Part shown: positions 1 to 59,220 of the stretch, in pieces | How positions within the stretch are numbered: the first letter of the stretch is position 1 | Layout of the letters: each line of letters starts with the position of its first letter | DNA from: a bacterium | Lineage (GTDB): Bacteria; Patescibacteriota; Minisyncoccia; UBA6257; 2-01-FULL-56-20 | Length of the DNA stretch: 64,000 nucleotides | Assembly (NCBI GenBank): GCA_021780195.1 | Contig: JAJXZE010000001.1 | Coordinates: 1,603 to 65,602 of the forward strand | Direction: 5' to 3' | The notes under the pieces: generated by a model | What the model was told of the DNA's origin: nothing | What the model saw: only the letters and a program-made list of their open reading frames with translations | Databases searched by the model: none | Made by a program: the position numbers and the translations under genes

Positions 1-434
1 GTGTATTTGAGAACTTCGGTTACTTTGATGAGGAGTTTAATATGGCCGATGATTGGGAGATGTGGATACGCCTCGCGGCGCAAGGCGTATCGTTCGCCTC
101 AATCCATGAGCCCCTTTTTAAATATCATATTCATGGCACCAATATAACTAAAACCATAGCTACGGGAAAGATGATAAAAGACCTGGAGTATTTAGCGATA
201 AAGCACGAATCTCTTTATAGCAGATATCCTCGCGCCAGATCAAGAATGATGGCATATCTTGGGAAGCTTTATGCCGACGATGGAGAGCTGACGCGGGCGC
301 AAAGTATACTGAAGCAAGCAATAGTTCTGGATAGAGCCAACTGGAAAGCATATGTCACCCTCCTCATCTCGAGTCTTGGGATAAAGACATACCGTCGAGC
401 TGCGTCGGCGATAAAATTTTTCAGAGGTAGCTAA
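1..434 (+). CDS. glycosyltransferase family 2, C-terminal fragment (5' end lies upstream of window)
   Basis: Frame-3 translation from position 3 reads VFENFGYFDEEFNMADDWEMWIRL..., the typical GT2 C-terminal region; the 42..434 ORF continues this frame to its stop. Confidence 0.55.
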   Translation, partial: VFENFGYFDEEFNMADDWEMWIRLAAQGVSFASIHEPLFKYHIHGTNITKTIATGKMIKDLEYLAIKHESLYSRYPRARSRMMAYLGKLYADDGELTRAQSILKQAIVLDRANWKAYVTLLISSLGIKTYRRAASAIKFFRGS

Positions 435-435
435 A

Positions 436-1212
436 ATGGGGAGCATTAAGAAGGCGATAAGAATTTTGAGAGAAAGAGGCGTACGGGTCTTTTTTGATAA
501 GATTATTAATCGGCTACGATTAGCGTTCCGCCCTATCTATATAAAATTTTTTATCTCAGGCAGAGAGATGGGTATGATAAAAGAACTTAGTGAGTTTGAT
601 GCGAGAGACTGTGACGCCGTTTTCACTTTCATCACTAAAAAATATTTTGGGATATTTAGTGCCATGCAAATCAAGAATGAGTTTATAAAATTGCTCAAGA
701 GAATTGAACGCAAGCACCCAAAATACGTACTTGAGGTGGGAACGGCCAATGGCGGAGCCCTTTTCTGCTTCGCCAAACTTGCGTCAGATGATGCCGTGGT
801 GATCAGCATCGATTTGCCGGAGGGTAAATTTGGAGGAGGCTACGAGAAATGGCGCGCGCCATTCTTTGGAGCGTTTCGCAGAAACGGGCAGAAGATATTT
901 CTTCTAAGAGAGGATTCCCACGCACCCGCAACGTTAGAACGCGTGAAAGAAATTTTGGGAGGGCGGCAGCTCGACTTCCTCTTTATTGATGGCGATCATA
1001 CCTATAGTGGAGTGAAACAGGACTTTGACATGTACCGCCCATTGGTCAAAAAAGGAGGCGTGGTCGCTTTTCATGATATCGTGGATGGTTTTGAGGAGTA
1101 TGTTGGCGGCGTGCCTAGATTTTGGCGAGAGCTGAAGGTTGGTTGTGACTATGAAGAATTTGTTCAGGATTGGGAGCAGGGCGGCTATGGCATTGGCATT
1201 TTGTCAGTGTAG
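436..1212 (+). CDS. class I SAM-dependent methyltransferase (TylF/MycF-like O-methyltransferase fold)
   Basis: VLEVGTANGG ... FLFIDGDHTYSGVKQDF ... GGVVAFHDI motifs; sits inside a glycosyltransferase locus. Confidence 0.6.
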   Translation: MGSIKKAIRILRERGVRVFFDKIINRLRLAFRPIYIKFFISGREMGMIKELSEFDARDCDAVFTFITKKYFGIFSAMQIKNEFIKLLKRIERKHPKYVLEVGTANGGALFCFAKLASDDAVVISIDLPEGKFGGGYEKWRAPFFGAFRRNGQKIFLLREDSHAPATLERVKEILGGRQLDFLFIDGDHTYSGVKQDFDMYRPLVKKGGVVAFHDIVDGFEEYVGGVPRFWRELKVGCDYEEFVQDWEQGGYGIGILSV

Positions 1213-1282
1213 CGCGGATAAATGATGTGCCAAGAGCCGAGCCTCCGTTCCAATAGGCGTGGATTGGAGGTACTATTAAGAT

Positions 1283-2314
1283 ATGTCGGCTTCTCAGGAA
1301 GAGAAACATTTGCGAGAAAATAACGTGCAGGTGCCAAAAATTTCCGTCGTCATTCCTTCTTACAACGGGGAGGCATTCATAGGCAAGGCAATTCGCAGTG
1401 TTCTCAATCAGACCTTCCAGGATTTTGAGGTTCTCGTAGTAGATGATTGTTCGACGGATGGCACCCGGGACGAGGTACGGAGATTTGAGGCAATCGATAA
1501 AAGAGTGCGCCTATTTACCCTTAAAAAAAACTCCGGCGGCCCAGCTAGTCCGAGCAATCTTGGTATAGGGAAAAGCCGAGGAGAGTATGTATCATATCTT
1601 GATCAGGATGATATATATCTCCCAGACAGTCTCGAAAAAAGATGGCGCGTCTTGCAGGGAGCCAAGACCGACGTGCTGATCGCTAACATGTGGGTCGTGG
1701 ATTTGCGGAGCAATAAGTTTATCGATTACCTCAACTCAAACTTTTCCAGCTTTATTATTTCTAGAAAAATGTTTGATAAGGGTGAAATCGGGTTGCTGAG
1801 CGAAGAGGCATCCGGCATAGATGAATATGAATGGTCGCTGAGATATAGATTGAAAAATGGAGGAGAAAGAATTCGTTATTTTGAGGAACCCGCGGTGCTT
1901 TACGCTAGGCATCCAGGGCAGATGTCGGAAAGTCACTATTCAGAAAAATCAATCAAGGATTTTCTTAGAAGAGATTTCGTGGTTTTAAAATGGGCGGAAA
2001 TGGGCGGAAACGACTTTCGAGTCGATCTGGCTTGGATTTATTTTTGGATTGGTTACCGATATGGGCTTCTTGGAGAGTTTGATCACTCAAGACGATATTT
2101 AGAGAAATCGCTGGACAATGGAGCGTCTCTTGTTGCTCGGACATTTCTCCTCGTCGGCCTCGTAAGAAGCAGGCCTCTCTATGTCGCGGTCGACAAGGCG
2201 GCCAAATGGATAAAAAAAATATTTATAAAACGATGGAGGCTTAATAGTATGGTGAAGAAATATCCCGCATCATATCGAGACGCACTCGCCTTTTATGGAA
2301 AGATAACCTCCTAA
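1283..2314 (+). CDS. glycosyltransferase family 2 (copy 1 of tandem pair)
   Basis: KISVVIPSYNGEAFIGKAIRSVLNQTFQDFEVLVVDDCSTDGT signature (DxD-type GT-A); an alternative GTG start at 1331 would give a MPKISVV N-terminus identical to copy 2. Confidence 0.8.
   Translation: MSASQEEKHLRENNVQVPKISVVIPSYNGEAFIGKAIRSVLNQTFQDFEVLVVDDCSTDGTRDEVRRFEAIDKRVRLFTLKKNSGGPASPSNLGIGKSRGEYVSYLDQDDIYLPDSLEKRWRVLQGAKTDVLIANMWVVDLRSNKFIDYLNSNFSSFIISRKMFDKGEIGLLSEEASGIDEYEWSLRYRLKNGGERIRYFEEPAVLYARHPGQMSESHYSEKSIKDFLRRDFVVLKWAEMGGNDFRVDLAWIYFWIGYRYGLLGEFDHSRRYLEKSLDNGASLVARTFLLVGLVRSRPLYVAVDKAAKWIKKIFIKRWRLNSMVKKYPASYRDALAFYGKITS
1332..1485 (+). repeat. approx 152-bp near-identical direct repeat shared with 2318..2471 (one mismatch), covering the first ~50 codons of two adjacent GT2 genes
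   Basis: Direct nucleotide comparison of the two gene 5' ends: identical except ccag/ccaa, diverging after gaggtacggagatt. Confidence 0.85.
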
Positions 2315-2316
2315 AT

Positions 2317-3288
2317 ATGCCAAAAATTTCCGTCGTCATTCCTTCTTACAACGGGGAGGCATTCATAGGCAAGGCAATTCGCAGTGTTCTCAATCAGACC
2401 TTCCAAGATTTTGAGGTTCTCGTAGTAGATGATTGTTCGACGGATGGCACCCGGGACGAGGTACGGAGATTACAGAAGAAAGACGCTAGGATCAACTTAA
2501 TAGGATTAAACAAAAATACGGGTGGTCCAGCATCGCCGCGAACGTTAGGATGCAAGGCGGCGCGCGGAGAACTGATTGCATTTATCGATCAAGATGATAT
2601 TTTTTACCCACATTATTTGGAGGCGAAGTTTGATTTTTTTAGAAATCACCCAAATATAAATTTTCTGGCAAGCTGGGCTTGGACGTTTGATCCTGATTCA
2701 AAAAAAATCATCAATTGTGAATATGGCGGACCAGTTAACACCATGATTCGCGCAGAGATTTTAAAAACTATTAATTATTTCGATCCCAGAGAGACCGGTG
2801 TCGATGATTCGGGTATGTGGTACCGTTATCTGGTGCATTATGGCTCGCGTGCAAGTGCTTATGTGGAGTTGGCTCCGTTGACACTATATGCACGCTATGC
2901 TGGGCAAGGTTCGGACGTGGAGAGTAAGGACTTTAAAGAACTAGCAGAGAAGCTCAAGATGATTATTGGTGCATACTATGGTGAAGGAAACGGGGAAGTA
3001 TTCGCCTTTGTTTCTTCTCTCAAGTCGCGCATTGGCAATTTTTTATGCTTGTCGGGCGACGTTAAGCAAGGAAAGGGATATTTTAGGGAGTCCTTAAGAT
3101 TGCGATTCACATTTTTTGCATTTGGATTATTGTTAATGTCTACTTTTGCTCCACGGCATTATAGACGAACTGAGGCCCTCTTGAGAAAATTTCAAAGAAG
3201 CGTGGTGTGGCGCGCGAACGTTTTTATAAAATGGTTAAAGTATCGAAAAAGCTACACAGAAGCCCGGGCCATTTTATCTCAATACTGA
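2317..3288 (+). CDS. glycosyltransferase family 2 (copy 2 of tandem pair)
   Basis: N-terminal 50 aa identical to the preceding GT2; DDCSTDG motif; stop overlaps the next start (TGATGA). Confidence 0.8.
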   Translation: MPKISVVIPSYNGEAFIGKAIRSVLNQTFQDFEVLVVDDCSTDGTRDEVRRLQKKDARINLIGLNKNTGGPASPRTLGCKAARGELIAFIDQDDIFYPHYLEAKFDFFRNHPNINFLASWAWTFDPDSKKIINCEYGGPVNTMIRAEILKTINYFDPRETGVDDSGMWYRYLVHYGSRASAYVELAPLTLYARYAGQGSDVESKDFKELAEKLKMIIGAYYGEGNGEVFAFVSSLKSRIGNFLCLSGDVKQGKGYFRESLRLRFTFFAFGLLLMSTFAPRHYRRTEALLRKFQRSVVWRANVFIKWLKYRKSYTEARAILSQY

Positions 3289-4385
3289 TGAAAGTTTTAT
3301 TGGTTCATGGAACGAATTTGGTGTCGGGTGGAGAGGCGGTTTCCCTTGGGATTGCGAAGACGTTGGGGAAACATAACTTTGTTTTTTTTCTCCCAGGGAA
3401 GCCAGGGGACGAAAATCTCTTCCTGACATTCGGCGTCTATTATCCCTATCGCCGTGGTCTAGTTCGACTGATAAGGCGTCTGATTGAGGTGATGCGCAAA
3501 GAAAAACCTGATATTGTTCATGCACAAGGCTTACGAGCGGCGGCACTAGTAAAGGTGGCTTATTATCTCTCGGGGAAAAAAGGGAAATTTATCTATACCC
3601 TGCATGGAATTCATTTTATACGCAAGCAACTGCCGGCCCGAGTCGCATTTCTCCTTTTTGAGAAGGTTACCAATAAACTGGTTGACGCCCTAGTTTGTGT
3701 CGGGAGGGATGATTTTGAATTGGCGAAGACCCTGCATTTGGTCAGTAGTGAAAAGCTGTTCTTGATAAGGAATGGTATAAATTTGAGAGACGTAAAAAAC
3801 ACTCGTAGTGGGCATGTAGAGACGGGCTCTTGCAAGGAAGATCAAGTTGTCATCACCACGGTCTGCCGGCTCCACCATCAAAAAGATGTCGGGAGTCTTA
3901 TCGAGGCAGTTTCCATGCTTAGGGAAAATGGAGTAATGCTTTTGATAGTTGGTGATGGCCCAGAGCGGTCTCAGTTGGAGATGCTCAGTGCCAGTCTTTG
4001 CTTGGATGGCCGCATCAATTTTCTCGGGAATAGAAGTGACGTTGATCAAATTCTTTCCATAACAGACATTTTTGTATTGTCGACTCACTGGGAAGGCCTC
4101 CCTCTCGTTGTTCTAGAAGCCTGGGCACACAAAAAACCGGTTATAGCTTCCAAGGTACACGGGGTAAAGGACCTCATTAATGATGGAGATAATGGTCTGC
4201 TATTTGATGAGAGTGCCCCACGCGATTTATCAGAAAAAATAATATCGATTTTGAAAAATAGAGATCTAGGGGTGAGGCTTGGAGAGAATGGTTACCATCT
4301 CGTGAAAGCGCAATACGCATTAGAAATAATGGCAAAAAACTATGATGCGTTATATGCAAAAATATTGTGTTCTTCGGATAGGTAA
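3288..4385 (+). CDS. glycosyltransferase family 4 (GT-B fold)
   Basis: MKVLLVHGTNLVSGGE N-terminus and EGLPLVVLEAWAHKKPVIASKVHGVKDLINDGDNGLLF C-terminal GT4 motif; ATG at 3288 chosen rather than the upstream ORF-track extension. Confidence 0.8.
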   Translation: MKVLLVHGTNLVSGGEAVSLGIAKTLGKHNFVFFLPGKPGDENLFLTFGVYYPYRRGLVRLIRRLIEVMRKEKPDIVHAQGLRAAALVKVAYYLSGKKGKFIYTLHGIHFIRKQLPARVAFLLFEKVTNKLVDALVCVGRDDFELAKTLHLVSSEKLFLIRNGINLRDVKNTRSGHVETGSCKEDQVVITTVCRLHHQKDVGSLIEAVSMLRENGVMLLIVGDGPERSQLEMLSASLCLDGRINFLGNRSDVDQILSITDIFVLSTHWEGLPLVVLEAWAHKKPVIASKVHGVKDLINDGDNGLLFDESAPRDLSEKIISILKNRDLGVRLGENGYHLVKAQYALEIMAKNYDALYAKILCSSDR

Positions 4386-5485
4386 TGAAAATTCTTCAGG
4401 TCAATAAACTCTATTCTCCCTGGATCGGCGGGATTGAGACGGTGGCGCAGGATATCGCCGAACATTTTCACGGCAGGGATGGTGCGAGGGTGGTGAATCT
4501 TGTGTGCCAGCCGAGCGGTGCGCGAAAAATCGGGGGAGTGAACGGGGTGCCGACGTATCGCGCGGCGAGTTTTGGAATGGCGTTCGGCATGCCGCTCTCT
4601 CTCGATTTTTTCCGTTTGTTCAAAAAACTTTCCGCGGACGCCGATGTGATTATTCTACACCACCCGTTTCCGATCGCTTTCATCGCGTACCGCCTCTTCG
4701 GGAAGGGGAAAAGAGTGATCGTATGGTATCACTCCGATATCGTGAGGCAAAATATCGCGAAGGCACCGTTTATGCCATTCATCCGCGCCGTGCTTGCCGC
4801 CGCGGAACACATCCTCGTGTCGAATGAAGCCATCATTAAGCATTCCGCCGTCCTAAAAAAGTTTTCCGATAAATGCCGCGTCGTCCGTTTCGGTGTTGAC
4901 CCTGCGAGATTTCGGGAGACAGGCGCGATAGAAAAAGCGGAGGACGAAATAAGGAATGAGTATGGATCGCCGCTCATTCTCTCCGTGGGTCGCCTTGTCT
5001 ATTATAAGGGCTACTCTTATTTGATCGATGCGATAAAGGACGTTCCGGCGCACCTGCTGATCGTCGGGAGCGGGCCCTTACGTGCCGCCCTTAACGCTCA
5101 AATCAGGCGTAATGGCATGGGCGATAAGGTATTTATCGTGGGATCCGTCGACGACCTTGTCCCGTATTATCACGCATGCGACGTCTTTGCGTTGCCCTCG
5201 TGCGAACCTTCCGAGATGTTCGGCATCGTGCAGATTGAGGCCATGGCGTGCGGCAAGCCGGTCGTGAACACCGCACTTCCGACGGGCGTACCCGAAGTAA
5301 GCGTTGACGGGAGAACCGGAAAGACCGTCCCGCCGAAAGATGCCCCCGCACTTGCGGAAGCGCTACGGGAGATTTTATCCAATAAAGACGAGTATGACCG
5401 CTTTTCCGCGAATGCCACAAGGGAAGTTGCGGCGAGATTTACGAAGGAGAAATTTTTTGCCGAGATGGAGCACTATCTCTCCTAG
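4385..5485 (+). CDS. glycosyltransferase family 4
   Basis: MKILQVNKLYSPWIGGIE ... EPSEMFGIVQIEAMACGKPVVNT (EX7E-type GT4 motif). Confidence 0.8.
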   Translation: MKILQVNKLYSPWIGGIETVAQDIAEHFHGRDGARVVNLVCQPSGARKIGGVNGVPTYRAASFGMAFGMPLSLDFFRLFKKLSADADVIILHHPFPIAFIAYRLFGKGKRVIVWYHSDIVRQNIAKAPFMPFIRAVLAAAEHILVSNEAIIKHSAVLKKFSDKCRVVRFGVDPARFRETGAIEKAEDEIRNEYGSPLILSVGRLVYYKGYSYLIDAIKDVPAHLLIVGSGPLRAALNAQIRRNGMGDKVFIVGSVDDLVPYYHACDVFALPSCEPSEMFGIVQIEAMACGKPVVNTALPTGVPEVSVDGRTGKTVPPKDAPALAEALREILSNKDEYDRFSANATREVAARFTKEKFFAEMEHYLS

Positions 5486-16191: not shown

Positions 16192-17094
16192 ATGGCGAAT
16201 CTCTACCAGTACCGGTCGGCGAATGTGCGGCGGACATGGCTCCTCTTTGCCGTGTTTTTCGTTGTCGTGGTCGGCGTCGGGTATGTATTCAGCATGGCGT
16301 ACGGCGACCCGAGCTTCGTGATCTTCGCGCTCGTCTTCAGTGTCGTCTATTCGCTCATCAGCTATTATTCGTCGGCGTCGATCGCGCTTTCTTTTGCGCG
16401 TGCGAAGCCGATCGAAAAGAAGGATGACCCGGAACTGTATAATCTTGTCGAAAATCTCTGCATCGCCTCTGGCCTCCCGATGCCGAAGCTTTATCTCACG
16501 CCCGAGATGCAGATCAACGCGTTCGCCACGGGCCGCGACCCTCAGCACGCCGCGGTCGCGGTGACCCTTGGCGCGCGCGAGCGCCTCAACAAGACGGAGC
16601 TCGAGGGCGTCCTTGCGCACGAACTCTCGCACGTCGGGAATCGCGATATCCTGGTCTCAACCGTCGCCGCGATCCTCGCGGGCATCATCTCGCTCATCGC
16701 GGATCTTTTCCTCCGGTCGCTCTTCTTCGGCGGGTTCGGCGGCGGCCGCCGTGGCGATGGGGAGGGGAACATGATCTTCATGCTTATCGGGATCGGACTC
16801 TCGATCCTCGCACCCATCGGCACCATGCTCATCCAGCTCGCGATCTCGCGCCGGCGCGAAGCGCTGGCCGACGCGTCGGGAGTCCTCCTTACGCGCTATC
16901 CCGAGGGTCTCATCTCGGCGCTCCGGAAGATCGCCGCCGACACGACACCCATGCGGAGTGCGAAGGATTCGACCGCGCACCTGTGGCTCGATACGCCTTT
17001 CAAGGGCAAGGGAACCTCGTGGTGGCACAAGCTCTTCATGACGCATCCCCCGATTGAGCAGCGCATCGCGGCATTGAAAGCGATCGCGGTTTAG
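16192..17094 (+). CDS. htpX: zinc metalloprotease HtpX (peptidase M48)
   Basis: HELSHVGNRD (HExxH) with four TM segments; conserved LemA-HtpX adjacency. Confidence 0.85.
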   Translation: MANLYQYRSANVRRTWLLFAVFFVVVVGVGYVFSMAYGDPSFVIFALVFSVVYSLISYYSSASIALSFARAKPIEKKDDPELYNLVENLCIASGLPMPKLYLTPEMQINAFATGRDPQHAAVAVTLGARERLNKTELEGVLAHELSHVGNRDILVSTVAAILAGIISLIADLFLRSLFFGGFGGGRRGDGEGNMIFMLIGIGLSILAPIGTMLIQLAISRRREALADASGVLLTRYPEGLISALRKIAADTTPMRSAKDSTAHLWLDTPFKGKGTSWWHKLFMTHPPIEQRIAALKAIAV

Positions 17095-17138
17095 GGTAGC
17101 ATAGAGAACGTTCCGGAGGCCGGAATACCGGCCATGCA

Positions 17139-17223
17139 GGAGGCGTCGCATAGTGGTCTAGTGCGCTCGCTTGGAAAGCGAGTATGTCGAAAGGCATCAC
17201 AGGTTCGAATCCTGTCGCCTCCG
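17139..17223 (+). tRNA. tRNA-Ser (anticodon GGA), class II with long variable arm; CCA not encoded
   Basis: Acceptor GGAGGCG/CGCCTCC, anticodon arm CTCGC-TTGGAAA-GCGAG, variable arm ~17 nt, T-arm ACAGG-TTCGAAT-CCTGT, discriminator G. Confidence 0.8.
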
Positions 17224-17227
17224 CGGA

Positions 17228-17380
17228 GAATGCCGAAAGGGCTTTGAAGAGCCAGAATAAAATCCCCCAGCGGGGATTTTTTCTTGTCCCTCGGCCCATT
17301 TGCCGAAAACAAACGAATGTTTTCGGACCGTGCCAAACGGGCCTGCGGGATCCTCTTCAAGGCCCTTTCGGCATTCTTTT
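17228..17380 (+). other. nested stem-loop element directly 3' of tRNA-Ser: 24-bp long-range stem (17228..17251 with 17353..17376) enclosing two hairpins, followed by a T-run
   Basis: gaatgccgaaagggctttgaagag pairs with ctcttcaaggccctttcggcattc (one G-U); the interior holds the intrinsic terminator 17262..17282 and a 9-bp hairpin ccgaaaaca/tgttttcgg. Confidence 0.5.
17262..17282 (+). terminator. rho-independent terminator after tRNA-Ser (ATCCCC-cagc-GGGGAT plus T6)
   Basis: aaaatcccccagcggggatttttt. Confidence 0.6.
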
Positions 17381-17674
17381 GGCGGGTGCGATGACTCGAA
17401 CCGGAGCGCCGCCCCGGGTAGGAGGGAGCCGCGTTCTTACGCGGCGGGTCGGGAACCGAGGGTTCCCGAAACGGGGGTCGGGGCGGCGCGCAAGATTCGA
17501 GGAGCGAGCGTAGCGAGCGACGGAATCCTGTCGATTTATATAAGGGGGTTTCTGGCACGTTTTCCACAAAAACATGCCTTTTCTTTTGTCCACTTTCGGC
17601 AATTTGCCCCTCATTATTTAATAATATACAATGGAGAGGTGGAAATATCACCCTTCCATTAAACATATTGATAT

Positions 17675-18250
17675 ATGGCCACTGACAACCTTATTGCCAA
17701 ATTATACGAATCCCCCAAGACAATCCTGACCATTAAGGACATTGCTTTGATTTGGGGAGAAACAAACACCGTCAATCTTCTCACGAAGATAAAATACTAC
17801 GCGAAGCAAGGATCGCTGATTCGACTGACTCGTGGCGTATTTGCCAAAAACAAAGAGTATGATCTGAAAGAATTAGCAGGAAGTATCTATACTCCTTCTT
17901 ATATCAGTTTTGAAACCGTGCTCCGTGAGACCGGCATTATTTTTCAACATCACGATGCGATTTTTGTAGCCGGTCCCTATCCGATGACCAAGAAAATCGA
18001 CGATCACACGATCGTCTTTCGCAAACTGAAAGACAGCGTTTTATACAACGGGCTCGGCGTAAAAAAAGAAAAGAGCTATAGCATCGCTACGCCGGAGCGA
18101 GCATTCCTCGACACCATATATCTATCCCCTAAGTTTTATTTCGATAACTTGCGATCCATCAATTGGGATCAATGTTTTGAACTGGCAAAAATATACGATA
18201 ACAAACAATTGATCAAGCGGATAACTAAATATAAAAAACATGCTGAATAA
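17675..18250 (+). CDS. AbiEi-like antitoxin / transcriptional regulator (type IV TA, abortive infection)
   Basis: 191-aa protein in the AT-rich patch, placed directly upstream of and overlapping an AbiEii-type nucleotidyltransferase gene; wHTH-like N-terminus. The call rests on context and length plus weak pattern similarity. Confidence 0.6.
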   Translation: MATDNLIAKLYESPKTILTIKDIALIWGETNTVNLLTKIKYYAKQGSLIRLTRGVFAKNKEYDLKELAGSIYTPSYISFETVLRETGIIFQHHDAIFVAGPYPMTKKIDDHTIVFRKLKDSVLYNGLGVKKEKSYSIATPERAFLDTIYLSPKFYFDNLRSINWDQCFELAKIYDNKQLIKRITKYKKHAE

Positions 18251-18953
18251 AGAAAAACACCAACTCGTTATGGGGCAGATTTTGAGAGATATTTATTCCG
18301 ATACCTCCATATCTTCCCTGATCGGATTCAAGGGCGGCACCTGTGCTTATTTTTTCTATGGCCTGACAAGATTTTCTATAGACCTCGACTTCGACCTGTT
18401 TTCCACTGATGAAGCTACGCAAAAGCTCGTGTACGAAAGAATCGGTGGTATGTTGGAAAAATACGGAGAGGTCAAAGATAATTACATAAAACGAAACACC
18501 ATATTCTTCCTGCTTTCTTATGGCGATGCCGACCACAATGTGAAAATTGAAGTGAACATGAGAATTCTTATGCCGGATATCAAGGAGCACTACGAAGTAA
18601 AAGAATATCTGGGCATTTCTATGCTTGCGGGCAAAAAAGATTATCTTTTTGCGAGTAAGCTGGCCGCATTGACCACAAGAAGCGAAACGGCAATGCGTGA
18701 TGTGTATGACGTTTGGTTTTTTGGCACAAATCACTGGGATATAAACGTTGATGTGATCAAGGCAAGAACTGGCAAGACTATCAAAGAATACATGGCTGAT
18801 TGCCTTCCGGTTGTTGAGGCAATCAAAGATAATGAAATTTTGAGAGGATTGGCTGAGCTTTTGCCGGACGAAAAAGCAAAGGCGTGGGTAAAAACTCACT
18901 TAAGAAAAGAGGTTATCTTTCTGCTCAAAAATTACCAATCCGTATTAAAATGA
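18240..18953 (+). CDS. AbiEii/AbiGii-family nucleotidyltransferase toxin (DUF1814)
   Basis: FKGGTCAYFFYG (the GGT motif of the DUF1814 NTase family) and later D/E-rich motifs; 11-nt overlap with the upstream AbiEi-like gene. Confidence 0.7.
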   Translation: MLNKEKHQLVMGQILRDIYSDTSISSLIGFKGGTCAYFFYGLTRFSIDLDFDLFSTDEATQKLVYERIGGMLEKYGEVKDNYIKRNTIFFLLSYGDADHNVKIEVNMRILMPDIKEHYEVKEYLGISMLAGKKDYLFASKLAALTTRSETAMRDVYDVWFFGTNHWDINVDVIKARTGKTIKEYMADCLPVVEAIKDNEILRGLAELLPDEKAKAWVKTHLRKEVIFLLKNYQSVLK

Positions 18954-40880: not shown

Positions 40881-41019
40881 CAGTGTAGCGCATTTTCCTG
40901 CAGGGGGTCTATGCGCGCGAGGGATTTAATGCTTCGTCCTTCTTACTGTGCGGAGGCGGTGTTCCGAAGTGAGAACCCGTCCGGGCGTTTTCATTTCATC
41001 GTGTTGATAAAAGATCTTG

Positions 41020-56576: not shown

Positions 56577-56651
56577 GCGTCCTTAGCTCAGTGGTAGAGC
56601 GCTACAATGACACTGTAGAGGCCGGAGGTCCGATCCCTCCAGGACGCACCA
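56577..56651 (+). tRNA. tRNA-Val (anticodon GAC), CCA encoded
   Basis: GCGTCCT TA GCTC-AGTGGTA-GAGC G CTACA-ATGACAC-TGTAG AGGCC GGAGG-TCCGATC-CCTCC AGGACGC A CCA. Confidence 0.85.
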
Positions 56652-56787
56652 CGGCGAAGGCGCGCTCCTCGGCGGACGCGGTTCGCGCGTGCTCGCGCGG
56701 CCGCTCGCTCTCGGCGTTGCCGACCTCCTCGTTTTTATCGTTCTCCGGGACGCCTCCGAGATGCCGCCGAGGAGCACGCCTTCGCCG
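56652..56787. repeat. 136-bp element bounded by 24-bp inverted repeats (23/24 complementary) between tRNA-Val and tRNA-Ile; either a MITE-like insertion or an RNA processing stem
   Basis: cggcgaaggcgcgctcctcggcgg (56652..56675) pairs with ccgccgaggagcacgccttcgccg (56764..56787). Confidence 0.5.
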
Positions 56788-56860
56788 TGGTGTTTCGCGC
56801 GAGGATTGGTCCCTCCTTGCGATTTGCGATGCAGTGGTGTAAAAAAGAATAGTATTTTAG

Positions 56861-56993: not shown

Positions 56994-57304
56994 ATAAGCG
57001 GTGCGTCTGCAGGGTGGAACCCCACGACAAGATCGACCTCGCCGAGTTCAGTGGAATCGCGGAGCAAATGAAGTTCCTCTCGACGCCGAGCCGGATCGCC
57101 ATCCTTTCGCTTCTCTATAAGGCACCGCACTGCGTCTGCGATCTTGAAACGCATACCGGTTTGTCGCAAACGCTCCTTTCCCATCATTTGAAGGATCTTG
57201 CGAAAGGGGGATTGGTGGCGAGCGCAAAAGAAAAAACATTTGTGGAATATCGATTGACTACGAAGGGCCGAAAACTGGTGCGGATGATAGGGCAAATCAA
57301 GTGA
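56984..57304 (+). CDS. arsR: ArsR/SmtB-family transcriptional regulator
   Basis: PSRIAILSLLYKAPHCVCDLETHTGLSQTLLSHHLKDLAKGGLV (wHTH with CVC metal-sensing motif). Confidence 0.75.
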   Translation: MFIYKRCVCRVEPHDKIDLAEFSGIAEQMKFLSTPSRIAILSLLYKAPHCVCDLETHTGLSQTLLSHHLKDLAKGGLVASAKEKTFVEYRLTTKGRKLVRMIGQIK

Positions 57305-58512
57305 AAATAGGACCCATGCCTTCCAAAAAGTCATTTTCGACCCTCATGAAAAGCGCTTTTTATATTGGCGTCATCGGGTATGGCGGCCCGGCGATCCTGG
57401 CGCAAATGAAGCGGATATTCGTCAACGAACATGGATATCTGTCGGAACGGGAATTTATGGACGGCCTGGGGCTCGCGCAGGTCCTCCCGGGCTCGCAGGG
57501 CACAAGTATGATGACCTATGTCGGATACAAGCTCTACCGTTTTTGGGGAGGCGTTGTTGTTCCTTTTGTCTTTATTGCCCCGTCCATCGCGCTGATCATT
57601 TTCCTTTCATGGGCGTACTTCAGCTTCGGCAATATTCATGCGGTGAAGTCCGTTTTTATGGGACTCGGCGCGGTCGTGGTTGCACTGCTTCTTGACGCTA
57701 CCTTCAAACTCGGAAAAACCGTCTTTAAGGATCTTGACCGAAACGATCTTAAGGGAGCGCTCATTGCCGCCGGTGCATTCATCGCCGTCTTCTTCTTCAA
57801 TATGAACGCGATTTATATTATTTTACTCTCCGCGCTTCTTGGTTTCGTTTTTTATTTCTCTACCAAAGAATTTGCATCGGAAAAAATGCCGTCCAGAGCC
57901 GCTTCCGGTAATCCCGTCGTGAGGCTGCGGTTCAAGAAGAAAGATTTTCTGCCGATCGGGCTTTTGCTGATAGCCATCTCGTCCGTTTTTTTCTTCCCTC
58001 TCTTCGAAAAGATATTCACCACGTTCTTTCAGGTCGGTGTTTTCACGTTCGGCGGCGGTTACACGGCAGTAGCTTTGATCCAGCGGCTCACGGTGGATGG
58101 TATGCACTGGATCACTCTTCCGCAATTTCGGGATGGCATCGCGCTCGGACAGATAACGCCGGGACCAGTGCTGGAAACCGCGACATTCATCGGGTATCAC
58201 GTTGCCGGGATCGCCGGCGCCCTTGTCGCAACCTCCGCTATTTTTTTGCCTTCCGTGCTCGCCATGCTCCTCGTGATTGATATGCATGAAAAGGTGAGGA
58301 ATCTGAAGCTCGTGAAGGTGCTGATCAAAGGTATCCTTTCCGGCTTTATCGGGTTGCTCGTCGCCGTCACGCTGCAATTTGCGACGAAATCACTCCTTGA
58401 TTGGCAGACCTGGGCGATCTTCCTTGCCGCGGTTGCGTTTATTTCCTATTTCAAAAAAGAGCCGATCTGGGCGATTGTGGGCGGCGTTGCGGTATCATTT
58501 TTCATATTCTGA
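57301..58512 (+). CDS. chrA: chromate efflux transporter ChrA
   Basis: Tandem CHR domains: GYGGPAILAQMKRIFVNEHGYLSEREFMDGLGLAQVLPGSQGTSMMTYVGY and TFGGGYTAVALIQRLTVDGMHWITLPQFRDGIALGQITPGPVLETATFIGY. Confidence 0.85.
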   Translation: MKIGPMPSKKSFSTLMKSAFYIGVIGYGGPAILAQMKRIFVNEHGYLSEREFMDGLGLAQVLPGSQGTSMMTYVGYKLYRFWGGVVVPFVFIAPSIALIIFLSWAYFSFGNIHAVKSVFMGLGAVVVALLLDATFKLGKTVFKDLDRNDLKGALIAAGAFIAVFFFNMNAIYIILLSALLGFVFYFSTKEFASEKMPSRAASGNPVVRLRFKKKDFLPIGLLLIAISSVFFFPLFEKIFTTFFQVGVFTFGGGYTAVALIQRLTVDGMHWITLPQFRDGIALGQITPGPVLETATFIGYHVAGIAGALVATSAIFLPSVLAMLLVIDMHEKVRNLKLVKVLIKGILSGFIGLLVAVTLQFATKSLLDWQTWAIFLAAVAFISYFKKEPIWAIVGGVAVSFFIF

Positions 58513-58611
58513 CCATGACGAGGAAAGCAAAACATATTTTCATCCGTATACCACCATAATCGGCCGGGAATTCGACGGCGGTCTCTTCGAAATAAATTTT
58601 AAAAAATTACC

Positions 58612-59220
58612 ATGATAAATAGCAAAGAGTATTACGAAGCAGGACTCGCGTTCCACGGGCACAAATGTCCCGCCATGCCGCTCGGTTTGCGGACGGGCGA
58701 AGCGGCCATGAACACATTGGGCGTTTCCCGCGCGAAGGACGGCGAGCTTGTCGCCATCCTTGAGCTCGGAGAAAATCATTGCGCGACATGCTTTGCGGAC
58801 GGCGTGCAGATGATCACGGGCTGTACATTCGGAAAGGGCAATATCTCCAAAACAAACCAGGGGAAATGGGGACTCACGCTCATTAACAAGAAATCCGGTA
58901 AAGCGGTGCGGGTCGTGCCGAAGACGGAAATAATGATGGCGAGCAAGCAGTCAGATTTTATGCAAAAATACCGCTCCAAAGGAGTGCCGGCGAGCGAGGT
59001 GCCCGAAGAGGTCGTTGCGCCGCTCATTAAAAAGGTGATGGAGGCGCCCTGCGATATTCTCGTCACGGTTGGTCCGGTGGTGACATACGACCTTAAAGAA
59101 TCGAAGCATAGCTATAACGGGTTTGCCTGTGAGGAATGCGGCGAAATGACCGTTATGGAATATGGAAGGATCAAGGGGGACAAAAAGGTCTGCATGGCGT
59201 GCGCGGATAAAGTGTTATAA
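58612..59220 (+). CDS. FmdE-family protein (formylmethanofuran dehydrogenase subunit E-like, C-terminal zinc ribbon)
   Basis: FHGHKCPAMPLGLRTGEAAMN FmdE motif and C-terminal CEECGEM...CMACADK. Confidence 0.65.
   Translation: MINSKEYYEAGLAFHGHKCPAMPLGLRTGEAAMNTLGVSRAKDGELVAILELGENHCATCFADGVQMITGCTFGKGNISKTNQGKWGLTLINKKSGKAVRVVPKTEIMMASKQSDFMQKYRSKGVPASEVPEEVVAPLIKKVMEAPCDILVTVGPVVTYDLKESKHSYNGFACEECGEMTVMEYGRIKGDKKVCMACADKVL

What the first reader, a model, noticed from the sequence alone, without database searches (positions are those of the whole stretch)
17228..17380. Large nested stem-loop element immediately 3' of tRNA-Ser(GGA)
A 24-bp long-range helix (17228..17251 pairing 17353..17376, one G-U) encloses a canonical intrinsic terminator (17262..17282) and a second 9-bp hairpin (17303..17326). 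It ends in a T-run.

A similarly organised element sits directly 3' of tRNA-Val (56652..56787).

Inference: this may be a structured RNA co-transcribed with the tRNA, an unusually elaborate terminator or RNase III processing stem, or the scar or attachment site of the adjacent island. About 280 nt of further GC-rich non-coding sequence (17381..17660) follows before the AbiE genes.
Basis: seen in the sequence. Interest (0 to 1): 0.55.

Follow-up and report, generated by a model that had tools for sequence, protein, structure and literature searches.

The report
Nested hairpin of tRNA-linked insertion
The 155-base nested hairpin after a serine tRNA gene of a small uncultured Paceibacteria (CPR) bacterium is real. 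It is the first part of a roughly 310-base insert that ends in a second copy of the tRNA's tail. Related genomes carry this kind of small tRNA-linked element, but no RNA or mobile-element catalogue searched here lists it.

Summary
Bases 17225-17251 pair with 17353-17379 (27 bp; 24 Watson-Crick plus 3 G-U). They enclose a canonical bidirectional terminator (17259-17280 plus a U-tract) and a second branched hairpin. MFE is -95.8 kcal/mol, z = -9.8.

The structure is not a stand-alone RNA and not a multicopy MITE. It is the proximal hairpin of a composite of about 310 bp (17225-17534):
- the hairpin;
- a degenerate inverted copy of a tRNA-Ser 3' end (17380-17402);
- a conserved structured core (17388-17522);
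- an 11-nt direct repeat of the tRNA T-loop/T-stem (17523-17534).

Homologous composites lie 3' of tRNA-Ser(GGA), tRNA-Ser(CGA) and tRNA-Arg(CCT) in other Paceibacteria. Their 18-19-nt repeats each match the local tRNA. Most orthologous loci lack them. In relatives the hairpin slot holds a simple long-stem terminator.

Best reading (about 0.45): the hairpin is a branched terminator that forms the left end of a recombinase-less, tRNA-3'-end-duplicating insertion, that is, an att-like scar or a miniature element.

The tRNA-Val element belongs to a separate five-member family. Its interior is conserved and its closing arms are unrelated between copies but complementary within each copy. All five copies lie at gene 3' ends in sense orientation.

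Rfam, IMG/VR, phage and plasmid searches found nothing. No strand preference and no mobility were shown.

The parts
17139..17224 (+). tRNA-Ser(GGA). CCA is not encoded. A promoter-like site lies at 17074-17102.
   Evidence: ARAGORN; Rfam tRNA, 59.7 bits; promoter scan.
17225..17251 (+). 5' arm of the 27-bp closing helix. It starts 1 nt after the tRNA end.
17259..17286 (.). Inner canonical intrinsic terminator T1: AAAAUCCCC-CAGC-GGGGAUUUU plus a U-tract. An A-tract upstream makes it bidirectional.
17286..17351 (+). Second, irregular branched hairpin. It contains the 9-bp hairpin 17303-17311/17318-17326.
17353..17379 (+). 3' arm of the closing helix, running into TTTT (17377-17380).
17380..17402 (-). 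Degenerate inverted copy of a tRNA-Ser 3' end. The minus strand reads GGTTCGAGTCATCGCACCCGCCA, that is, a T-loop, acceptor-like 3' strand and CCA.
   Evidence: Inverted-repeat extension; best local matches are tRNA-Ser 3' ends; homologous inverted copies of 10-16 nt exact in L049, L042, L028, L075, L041, L055.
17388..17522 (+). Conserved structured module ('type A'). It has a 12-bp helix (17406-17417/17478-17489), hairpins at 17428-17445 and 17449-17469, conserved GGGGGTCGGGG, and tandem GAGCGAGCG/GCGAGCGACGG motifs at 17502-17523. The strand is not established.
   Evidence: Alignments A1 and A2; compensatory pairs; covariance model R1 scores 168, 165 and 137 bits in the window, L079 and L049; helices; motif positions.
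17523..17534 (+). Direct repeat of the tRNA-Ser T-loop/T-stem 3' part. GAATCCTGTCG is an 11-nt exact match to 17207-17217. It is truncated where the AT-rich sequence begins.
   Evidence: Homologous repeats of 18-19 nt occur in L028, L042, L049 and L079.
56643..56796 (+). Second Y-shaped element, between tRNA-Val and tRNA-Ile. Closing helix 56646-56675/56764-56793. The interior 56676-56763 belongs to a five-member family. An inverted T-arm-like hairpin follows at 56798-56821.

Best explanation
The stem-loop at 17225-17379 is the proximal hairpin of a composite of about 310 bp lodged at the 3' end of tRNA-Ser(GGA).

Order of the composite:
- tRNA 3' end;
- long closing helix with a branched interior;
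- inverted copy of a tRNA-Ser 3' end;
- conserved structured module of about 130 nt;
- direct repeat of the tRNA from the T-loop onward.

Shown:
- The same ordered composite occurs at other tRNA genes of related Paceibacteria.
- The inverted and direct repeats match whichever tRNA is local.
- The composite is absent from most orthologous loci.
- No recombinase gene accompanies it.

Inferred:
- It is the footprint of site-specific insertion into the tRNA T-loop region, either an attL/attR-like scar or a miniature non-autonomous element.
- The inserted DNA supplies the tRNA with a new 3' flank and a terminator.
- Within this unit the flagged structure works as a compound, bidirectional terminator.
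  - The inner hairpin with its U-tract stops most tRNA transcripts at about 17286.
  - The 27-bp outer helix followed by UUUU forms only on read-through, or in single-stranded DNA. It then acts as a back-up stop and insulator between the tRNA and the module or downstream genes.
- The outer arms correspond in position to the simple 18-30-bp terminator stems of relatives. Here that slot carries a 101-nt branched interior.
For: 1. The structure is real and far beyond chance.
2. A canonical terminator lies inside it and is called on both strands.
3. The repeat extends into the tRNA.
4. The right flank resembles a tRNA-Ser 3' end with CCA.
5. Bases 17388-17534 are homologous to modules 3' of tRNA-Ser(GGA) in L049 and tRNA-Ser(CGA) in L079: R1 scores of 137-168 bits, with compensatory changes in the 11-12-bp helix.
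6. The direct repeats begin in the T-loop and end one base after the discriminator. They match the local tRNA: 19 nt in L028 and L042, 18 nt in L049 and L079, 15 nt in L075, 11 nt in the window.
7. Around the 66 tRNAs examined, repeats of the tRNA tail of 9 nt or more occur downstream far more often than upstream. Direct: 12 of 66 versus 1 of 66. Inverted: 9 of 66 versus 1 of 66.
8. A long-stem hairpin at the tRNA-Ser end co-occurs with the repeats: 7 of 9 loci versus 2 of 40, Fisher p = 1.4e-5.
9. On L079, tRNA-Arg(CCT) is followed in order by a 544-aa ORF, a pseudo 3'-end copy, a Y-hairpin, an inverted repeat, a module and a direct repeat. This is the tandem accretion pattern described for tRNA-integrating elements (bioRxiv 10.1101/2020.12.28.424599).
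10. R1 finds the module in only 3 (strong) plus 3 (weak) of 77 sources.
Against: - No integrase or transposase was found next to any copy.
- No empty-site comparison is possible: the nearest relatives share at most 84% identity in the flanking M48 peptidase, and the intergenic DNA does not align.
- The window's direct repeat is only 11 nt and its inverted copy is degenerate.
- The module shows covarying helices and highly conserved unpaired stretches. That pattern is typical of a functional RNA rather than a passive scar.
- The repeats track the local tRNA even though the modules have diverged. This needs either recent insertion or concerted evolution.
- The interior of the window's hairpin has no homologue anywhere searched.
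- Termination was not measured.
Confidence: 0.45

Rival explanations
1. RNA-level processing element. The tRNA is transcribed through the whole structure. The 27-bp helix, together with its weaker extension into the T-arm and acceptor, is a double-strand-specific (RNase III-type) cleavage or stability stem that helps 3' maturation of the tRNA.
For: - The helix is long and nearly perfect, starts 1 nt after the tRNA end, and all three of its non-Watson-Crick pairs are G-U on the + strand.
- The tRNA-Val element lies between two tRNAs with no promoter or terminator called between them, so there both arms are probably transcribed.
- All five members of that family lie in sense orientation 3' of a gene.
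Against: - A canonical terminator separates the two arms at tRNA-Ser.
- In a full read-through transcript the minimum-energy fold destroys the tRNA cloverleaf.
- Across the family, A-C mismatches (which would be G-U on the other strand) are as common as G-U, so no strand is favoured.
- There is no Rfam match.
Confidence: 0.15
2. Independent non-coding RNA gene plus a shared terminator. The conserved module (17388-17534) is a small-RNA gene, possibly on the minus strand. Its end mimics a tRNA-Ser 3' end. The nested hairpin is simply the bidirectional terminator between this gene and the convergent tRNA.
For: - The module has compensatory base changes and conserved unpaired blocks.
- In relatives the hairpin between the tRNA and the module is a symmetric A-tract/T-tract terminator usable from both sides.
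- A peripheral hairpin of the module varies in length or is absent between species, as in structured RNAs.
Against: - No convincing promoter was found for either strand.
- There is no strand bias in G-U versus A-C pairs.
- This reading does not explain why both repeats copy the local tRNA at three different tRNA genes.
- There is no Rfam family.
Confidence: 0.15
3. Local palindrome growth without any mobile element. Intrastrand template switching at a terminator hairpin copied the left flank (tRNA 3' end plus trailer) in inverted orientation to the right side. The result is a long quasi-palindrome with no function of its own.
For: - In L049 the palindrome runs perfectly from the T-arm through the hairpin to an inverted T-arm, apart from a 6-nt deletion.
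- Both window elements have near-perfect arms (24 of 25 and 28 of 29) next to much more diverged tRNA-like parts.
- No strand is favoured.
Against: - It does not explain the direct repeat, which is longer than the inverted copy and lacks that copy's deletions.
- It does not explain the conserved module or its recurrence at different tRNAs.
- It does not explain the conserved interiors with unrelated arms in the tRNA-Val family.
Confidence: 0.12
4. Miniature inverted-repeat transposable element (MITE, Correia- or ERIC-like). The 25-bp arms would be its terminal inverted repeats.
For: The size (about 155 bp) and arm length (25 bp) resemble Correia-type elements (own knowledge); the inverted repeat is shown.
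Against: - The arms occur only once in the 64-kb window.
- They have no exact match in IMG/VR or JGI metagenome contigs, and BLAST finds no match in the roughly 75 related Paceibacteria loci fetched.
- No target-site duplication flanks the arms (sequence).
- In the analogous tRNA-Val family the arms differ completely between copies while the interior is conserved. That is the opposite of a MITE.
Confidence: 0.04

Closest known systems
tRNA-gene-targeting integrative elements and their partial-tRNA scars (P4-type islands, tycheposon islands)
   Same: - A direct repeat of the tRNA 3' part starts in the T-loop and ends at the tRNA end.
- The inserted DNA restores the tRNA 3' flank.
- Successive insertions push older ones outward (L079 tRNA-Arg).
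- Cargo and remnants lie beside tRNAs. The pattern is as described in bioRxiv 10.1101/2020.12.28.424599. The T-loop sublocation class is from own knowledge (Williams 2002).
   Different: - No integrase was found anywhere nearby.
- The bracketed unit is only about 150-310 bp.
- It always carries an inverted copy of the T-arm and a conserved, covarying structured core.
- The repeats match three different tRNAs.
Intrinsic (Rho-independent) bidirectional terminators, including branched forms
   Same: - A GC-rich stem followed by a U-tract, with an A-tract upstream.
- Position immediately 3' of a gene.
- Relatives carry simple 18-30-bp stems in the same slot.
   Different: - Two nested levels: a 27-bp outer helix encloses a complete terminator plus a second branched hairpin.
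- The outer helix has only a 4-nt T-run.
- Activity was not tested.
Correia, ERIC or REP-type small palindromic repeats (MITE-like)
   Same: An intergenic palindromic unit of about 150 bp with arms of about 25 bp, which could be an RNase III substrate when transcribed (own knowledge).
   Different: - Single copy.
- The arms are not shared with any other locus.
- No target duplication.
Folded single-stranded attachment site of CTX-phi type elements (own knowledge: Val et al. 2005)
   Same: Two inverted copies of the target-like sequence are separated by a short spacer. In single-stranded DNA they would fold into a duplex that mimics the chromosomal target. The element carries no recombinase of its own.
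   Different: - The target here is a tRNA T-arm, not dif.
- No Xer involvement, single-stranded intermediate or phage was shown.
- This is an analogy only.

Membership tests
Intrinsic terminator | GC-rich stem-loop immediately followed by a U/T-tract | tested here: met
   17259-17280 plus TTCTTG is called on the + strand and, more weakly, on the - strand. The outer helix ends in TTTT at 17377-17380.
Intrinsic terminator | Transcripts actually end there | not testable with these tools
   Needs 3'-end mapping.
MITE (Correia/ERIC-like) | Multiple copies sharing conserved terminal inverted repeats | tested here: not met
   The arms occur once in the window. They have 0 exact matches in IMG/VR and in JGI metagenome contigs, and no BLAST match in about 75 related loci.
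MITE (Correia/ERIC-like) | Target-site duplication flanking the repeats | tested here: not met
   The flanks are ..CGCGG|AGAATG and CATTCT|TTTGG, with no direct repeat.
tRNA-targeting integrative element or island | Direct repeat of the tRNA 3' part at the distal boundary | tested here: met
   11 nt at 17523-17534 in the window. 18-19 nt in L028, L042, L049 and L079, and 15 nt in L075, each matching the local tRNA.
tRNA-targeting integrative element or island | Integrase or recombinase gene within the element | tested here: not met
   - The bracketed segment holds no ORF with homologues.
- Neighbouring genes are AbiEii and a P-type ATPase, plus three ORFs without any Pfam hit.
- No recombinase-like ORF was noticed by inspection in the homologous loci.
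tRNA-targeting integrative element or island | Presence/absence among related genomes at the same tRNA | tested here: met
   The module is present in 3 (strong) plus 3 (weak) of 77 sources. Repeats occur in a minority of about 50 tRNA-Ser(GGA) loci. No nucleotide-level empty site could be aligned.
tRNA-targeting integrative element or island | Excision, a circular junction or active integration | not testable with these tools
   Needs read-level data or an experiment.
Any described RNA family (Rfam 15) | Covariance-model match at or near the gathering score | tested here: not met
   Only tRNAs pass. All other matches have E >= 0.19 and lie far below the gathering score. The same holds for homologous loci.
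RNase III processing stem | Continuous dsRNA helix of about 20 bp or more | tested here: met
   27 bp at tRNA-Ser and 29 bp at tRNA-Val.
RNase III processing stem | Both arms present on one transcript, and cleavage | tested here: inconclusive
   At tRNA-Ser a terminator lies between the arms. At tRNA-Val no terminator or promoter is called between the tRNAs. Cleavage is not testable here.
CTX-phi-type folded attachment site | Two inverted target-like half sites separated by a short spacer | tested here: met
   The tRNA 3' end and its inverted copy flank the hairpin in the window, L049, L042, L028, L075, L041 and L055.
CTX-phi-type folded attachment site | Single-stranded DNA intermediate and host Xer recombination at dif | not tested
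   The target here is a tRNA, not dif. There is no evidence for a single-stranded form.

The most novel reading that the evidence does not exclude
Paceibacteria (CPR bacteria) carry a previously undescribed family of recombinase-less miniature elements. Each comprises:
- a palindrome that incorporates the tRNA 3' end;
- an inverted T-arm copy;
- a conserved core of about 110-130 nt with covarying helices and GAGCGAGCG repeats;
- a direct repeat of the tRNA tail.

The elements would insert into the T-loop region of different tRNA genes. One possible route is a folded hairpin attachment site used by a host recombinase. Alternatively the core is a new structured RNA whose closing helix must copy the neighbouring tRNA. 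The flagged nested hairpin would then be a working part of the element (its folded site or terminator), not an incidental scar.
Probability: 0.25. Interest if true: 0.75.

Novelty: new variant of a known kind. Interest (0 to 1): 0.5.

Why it matters
CPR bacteria have genomes of roughly 0.8-0.9 Mb (complete MAG chromosomes among the relatives). Few mobile elements are known in them (own knowledge), and how they acquire genes next to tRNAs is poorly understood.

A small element without an integrase that duplicates tRNA 3' ends at several tRNA genes would point to one of two things:
- an unrecognised insertion mechanism;
- a new structured RNA tied to tRNA genes.

There are also practical consequences:
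- The region is mis-annotated as a 191-aa protein in the public record.
- These nested palindromes may break assemblies: one short-read contig from SRR13178628 ends about 80 nt after the M48 gene.
- If the flagged structure is only a compound terminator inside an old scar, it is of local interest only.

Tried and rejected
- MITE: rejected. The arms are single-copy in the window, IMG/VR, JGI metagenomes and related loci.
- Known RNA family: rejected. Rfam gathering and E-value scans of the window region and eight related loci found only tRNAs. ARAGORN found no tmRNA.
- Conservation at the orthologous locus: the hairpin sequence is not conserved in 75 M48-linked loci.
- Homologues via the spurious 191-aa ORF: the only hit was an antisense-tRNA translation.
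- Closer relatives through the 5.8-billion-protein search: none above 84% identity. Two fetched loci (L095, L096) gave a different long-stem hairpin and tRNA-like debris but no empty site.
- Empty-site test by aligning the sequence after the distal repeat to the post-tRNA sequence of other species: no similarity.
- Phage or plasmid origin: no blastn match. IMG/VR pattern scans for both module types found nothing.
- One loose GC-rich pattern gave 15 IMG/VR hits. They look like coding sequence of GC-rich phages and lack the Y-element architecture, so they were discarded.
- Far boundary of the AbiE island: no second tRNA-Ser repeat.
- Strand assignment from G-U versus A-C counts: inconclusive.
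- Group I tRNA introns of Patescibacteria (PMC13011429): considered and set aside. Those sit in the anticodon loop.

Full report
**Observation**

The window comes from a GC-rich Paceibacteria/Parcubacteria MAG. The flanking M48 peptidase is identical to one on GCA_027352685.1 contig DAIEIM010000004.1, and the relatives are all Patescibacteria MAGs.

tRNA-Ser(GGA) lies at 17139-17224. Directly after it:
- 17225-17251 pairs with 17353-17379 (27 bp; 24 Watson-Crick plus 3 G-U).
- The 25-nt DNA repeat does not arise in 100 shuffles.
- The folded region has z = -9.76.

Inside the helix lie two structures:
- a canonical terminator (17259-17280 plus a U-tract), which the consensus scan calls on both strands;

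The tRNA-Val element is equally real.

The inverted repeat continues, degenerate, into the tRNA T-arm (17202-17251 versus 17353-17402). Read on the minus strand, 17380-17402 is GGTTCGAGTCATCGCACCCGCCA. Its best local matches are tRNA-Ser 3' ends with encoded CCA.

Further downstream, 17523-17534 repeats 11 nt of the tRNA T-loop/T-stem in direct orientation. It ends exactly where the GC-rich sequence gives way to AT-rich sequence.

**Comparative evidence**

I fetched 75 loci around orthologues of the M48 peptidase. Most carry tRNA-Ser(GGA) downstream. None contains the window's hairpin sequence.

A subset shares an ordered architecture: a long-stem A-tract/T-tract hairpin starting at the tRNA end, then an inverted copy of the T-loop/T-stem, then 85-180 nt of GC-rich hairpins, then a direct repeat of the tRNA from the T-loop to one base past the discriminator.
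- The direct repeat is 19 nt in L028 and L042, 18 nt in L049 and 15 nt in L075.
- L041, L055 and L014 carry partial versions.

A metagenome scan with two conserved motifs found L079. There the same module follows a different tRNA, tRNA-Ser(CGA), and its 18-nt repeat matches that tRNA.

Support for homology and structure:
- The window, L049 and L079 modules align at 79% mean identity.
- They show compensatory changes in the long helix.
- They score 137-168 bits with model R1. The remaining sources give only three weak full-length hits and one partial hit.
- The second module type (L028, L042, L075, L041) has eight pairs with compensatory changes.

Statistical support:
- Repeats of the tRNA tail of 9 nt or more are enriched downstream over upstream of the 66 tRNAs examined. 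Direct: 12 of 66 versus 1 of 66. Inverted: 9 of 66 versus 1 of 66.
- The long-stem hairpin co-occurs with the repeats: 7 of 9 loci versus 2 of 40, p = 1.4e-5.

**The L079 tRNA-Arg locus**

Downstream of tRNA-Arg(CCT) lie, in order:
- a 544-aa ORF;
- a partial copy of the tRNA-Arg 3' end;
- a Y-shaped palindrome;
- an inverted T-arm copy that matches tRNA-Arg in 13 of 14 positions;
- a module related to the type-A core (R1, E = 2e-4);
- a direct repeat of the tRNA-Arg tail.

This is the accretion pattern known for tRNA-integrating elements. No integrase was found here or in any other copy.

**The tRNA-Val element**

Its interior (56676-56763) is homologous to interiors in four other loci:
- L079, in the tRNA-Arg island;
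- L044 and L070, both just after the groEL stop codon;
- L060, just after a 297-aa gene.

Interior identity is 0.53-0.75 within the family, against about 0.45 to the tRNA-Ser element. The closing arms are mostly unrelated between copies (0.28-0.52 ungapped identity), yet within each copy they are 88-100% complementary when G-T pairs are counted.

All five copies lie 3' of a gene in sense orientation and are followed by T-rich sequence. Three relatives of L070 with near-identical groEL 3' ends lack the element. I read this family as a branched terminator or 3'-end element. How the arms come to differ is unexplained.

**Interpretation**

The flagged structure occupies the terminator slot of a tRNA-3'-end-duplicating composite. 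I consider it most likely a compound bidirectional terminator forming the left end of a recombinase-less insertion or att-like scar (confidence about 0.45).

Points against this reading:
- No mobility was shown.
- The window's direct repeat is short.
- The module looks like a functional structured nucleic acid.
- G-U versus A-C counts give no strand.
- If the whole region were transcribed, the minimum-energy fold would disrupt the tRNA. That argues against routine read-through.

The rivals are an RNA processing stem, an independent RNA gene sharing the terminator, palindrome growth by template switching, and a MITE. Only the MITE is effectively excluded.

**Known families and novelty**

- Rfam has no match.
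- Phage, plasmid and IMG/VR searches are empty.
- The closest known kinds are tRNA-targeting integrative elements with partial-tRNA scars, and intrinsic terminators.
- The differences are the tiny size, the lack of a recombinase, the obligatory inverted T-arm copy and the conserved covarying core.

I rate it a new variant of a known kind, with moderate interest.

Noticed in passing
window 56643-56796; L079 4100-4216(-); L044 2712-2845; L070 940-1059; L060 about 2205-2340(-): A family of Y-shaped elements at gene 3' ends. The interior of about 60-90 nt is conserved (ACGYGGTTCGCGCG..CTCGGC..GCCTCCGA). The closing arms of 15-36 bp are largely unrelated between copies. All five copies lie in sense orientation after a gene. 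How unrelated yet complementary arms arise is unexplained.
   Followed up: partly
window 40950-40978 (-): About 40 nt 3' of tRNA-Ser(GCT) lies a pseudo T-arm plus acceptor 3' strand copy (GGGTTCTCACTTCGGAACACCGCCTCCGC). This is a third tRNA in the window with a duplicated tail. An EamA transporter gene follows.
   Followed up: partly
window 17675-18953: A low-GC AbiE-like toxin-antitoxin pair sits 140 nt beyond the tRNA-Ser tail repeat: an AbiEii/DUF1814 nucleotidyltransferase (18240-18953) and an upstream ORF with no Pfam hit. MenT3, of the same superfamily, modifies the 3' ends of tRNA-Ser (PMC7450476). The proximity is probably coincidental, because no AbiE-like ORF was noticed downstream of the homologous modules (ORF listings only; not scanned against Pfam).
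   Followed up: partly
L075 about 1380-1484; L014 about 3475-3560; L027 2954-3089: An insertion of about 85 nt with the motif GGCAGCGAG-[hairpin]-GACGAGCGAAC sits inside the T-loop of the duplicated tRNA tail in L075 and L014. A related motif lies just upstream of tRNA-Ser in L027. Insertions into hairpin loops seem to be a recurring theme.
   Followed up: no
L022 3838-3962; L038 944-1069; L039 3836-3973; L037 1465-1598: Just upstream of the M48 gene in four species, an outer 21-24-bp helix encloses a long perfect terminator hairpin. This is another nested-hairpin arrangement, at a protein-gene 3' end.
   Followed up: no
window 17091-17666 (-): The public record annotates a 191-aa protein across tRNA-Ser and the whole element. 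Its only database relative matches the antisense translation of the tRNA. The ORF is almost certainly spurious.
   Followed up: yes
L096 3521-3680: In one of the nearest relatives (84% M48 identity), tRNA-Ser is followed by a different long-stem hairpin (27-30 bp) whose loop repeats part of its own 3' arm. T-arm-like fragments follow (GGGAGGATCAAATCC, GGGTTCGGG, GGTTCGAGAGACC).
   Followed up: no
window 17502-17523 versus 17161-17171: The module's conserved AGCGAGCG motif is complementary to the 5' strand of this tRNA-Ser's anticodon stem, and the two pair in the read-through fold. The tRNAs of L049 and L079 lack this complementarity, so it is probably chance.
   Followed up: partly
window 1-5000 and 57000-59000: Lower-GC segments hold a methyltransferase and a glycosyltransferase gene (436-2314) and, just after tRNA-Ile, chromate-transporter and FmdE-like genes. 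These look like accessory genes beside tRNAs. None of the ten ORFs scanned was an integrase.
   Followed up: partly
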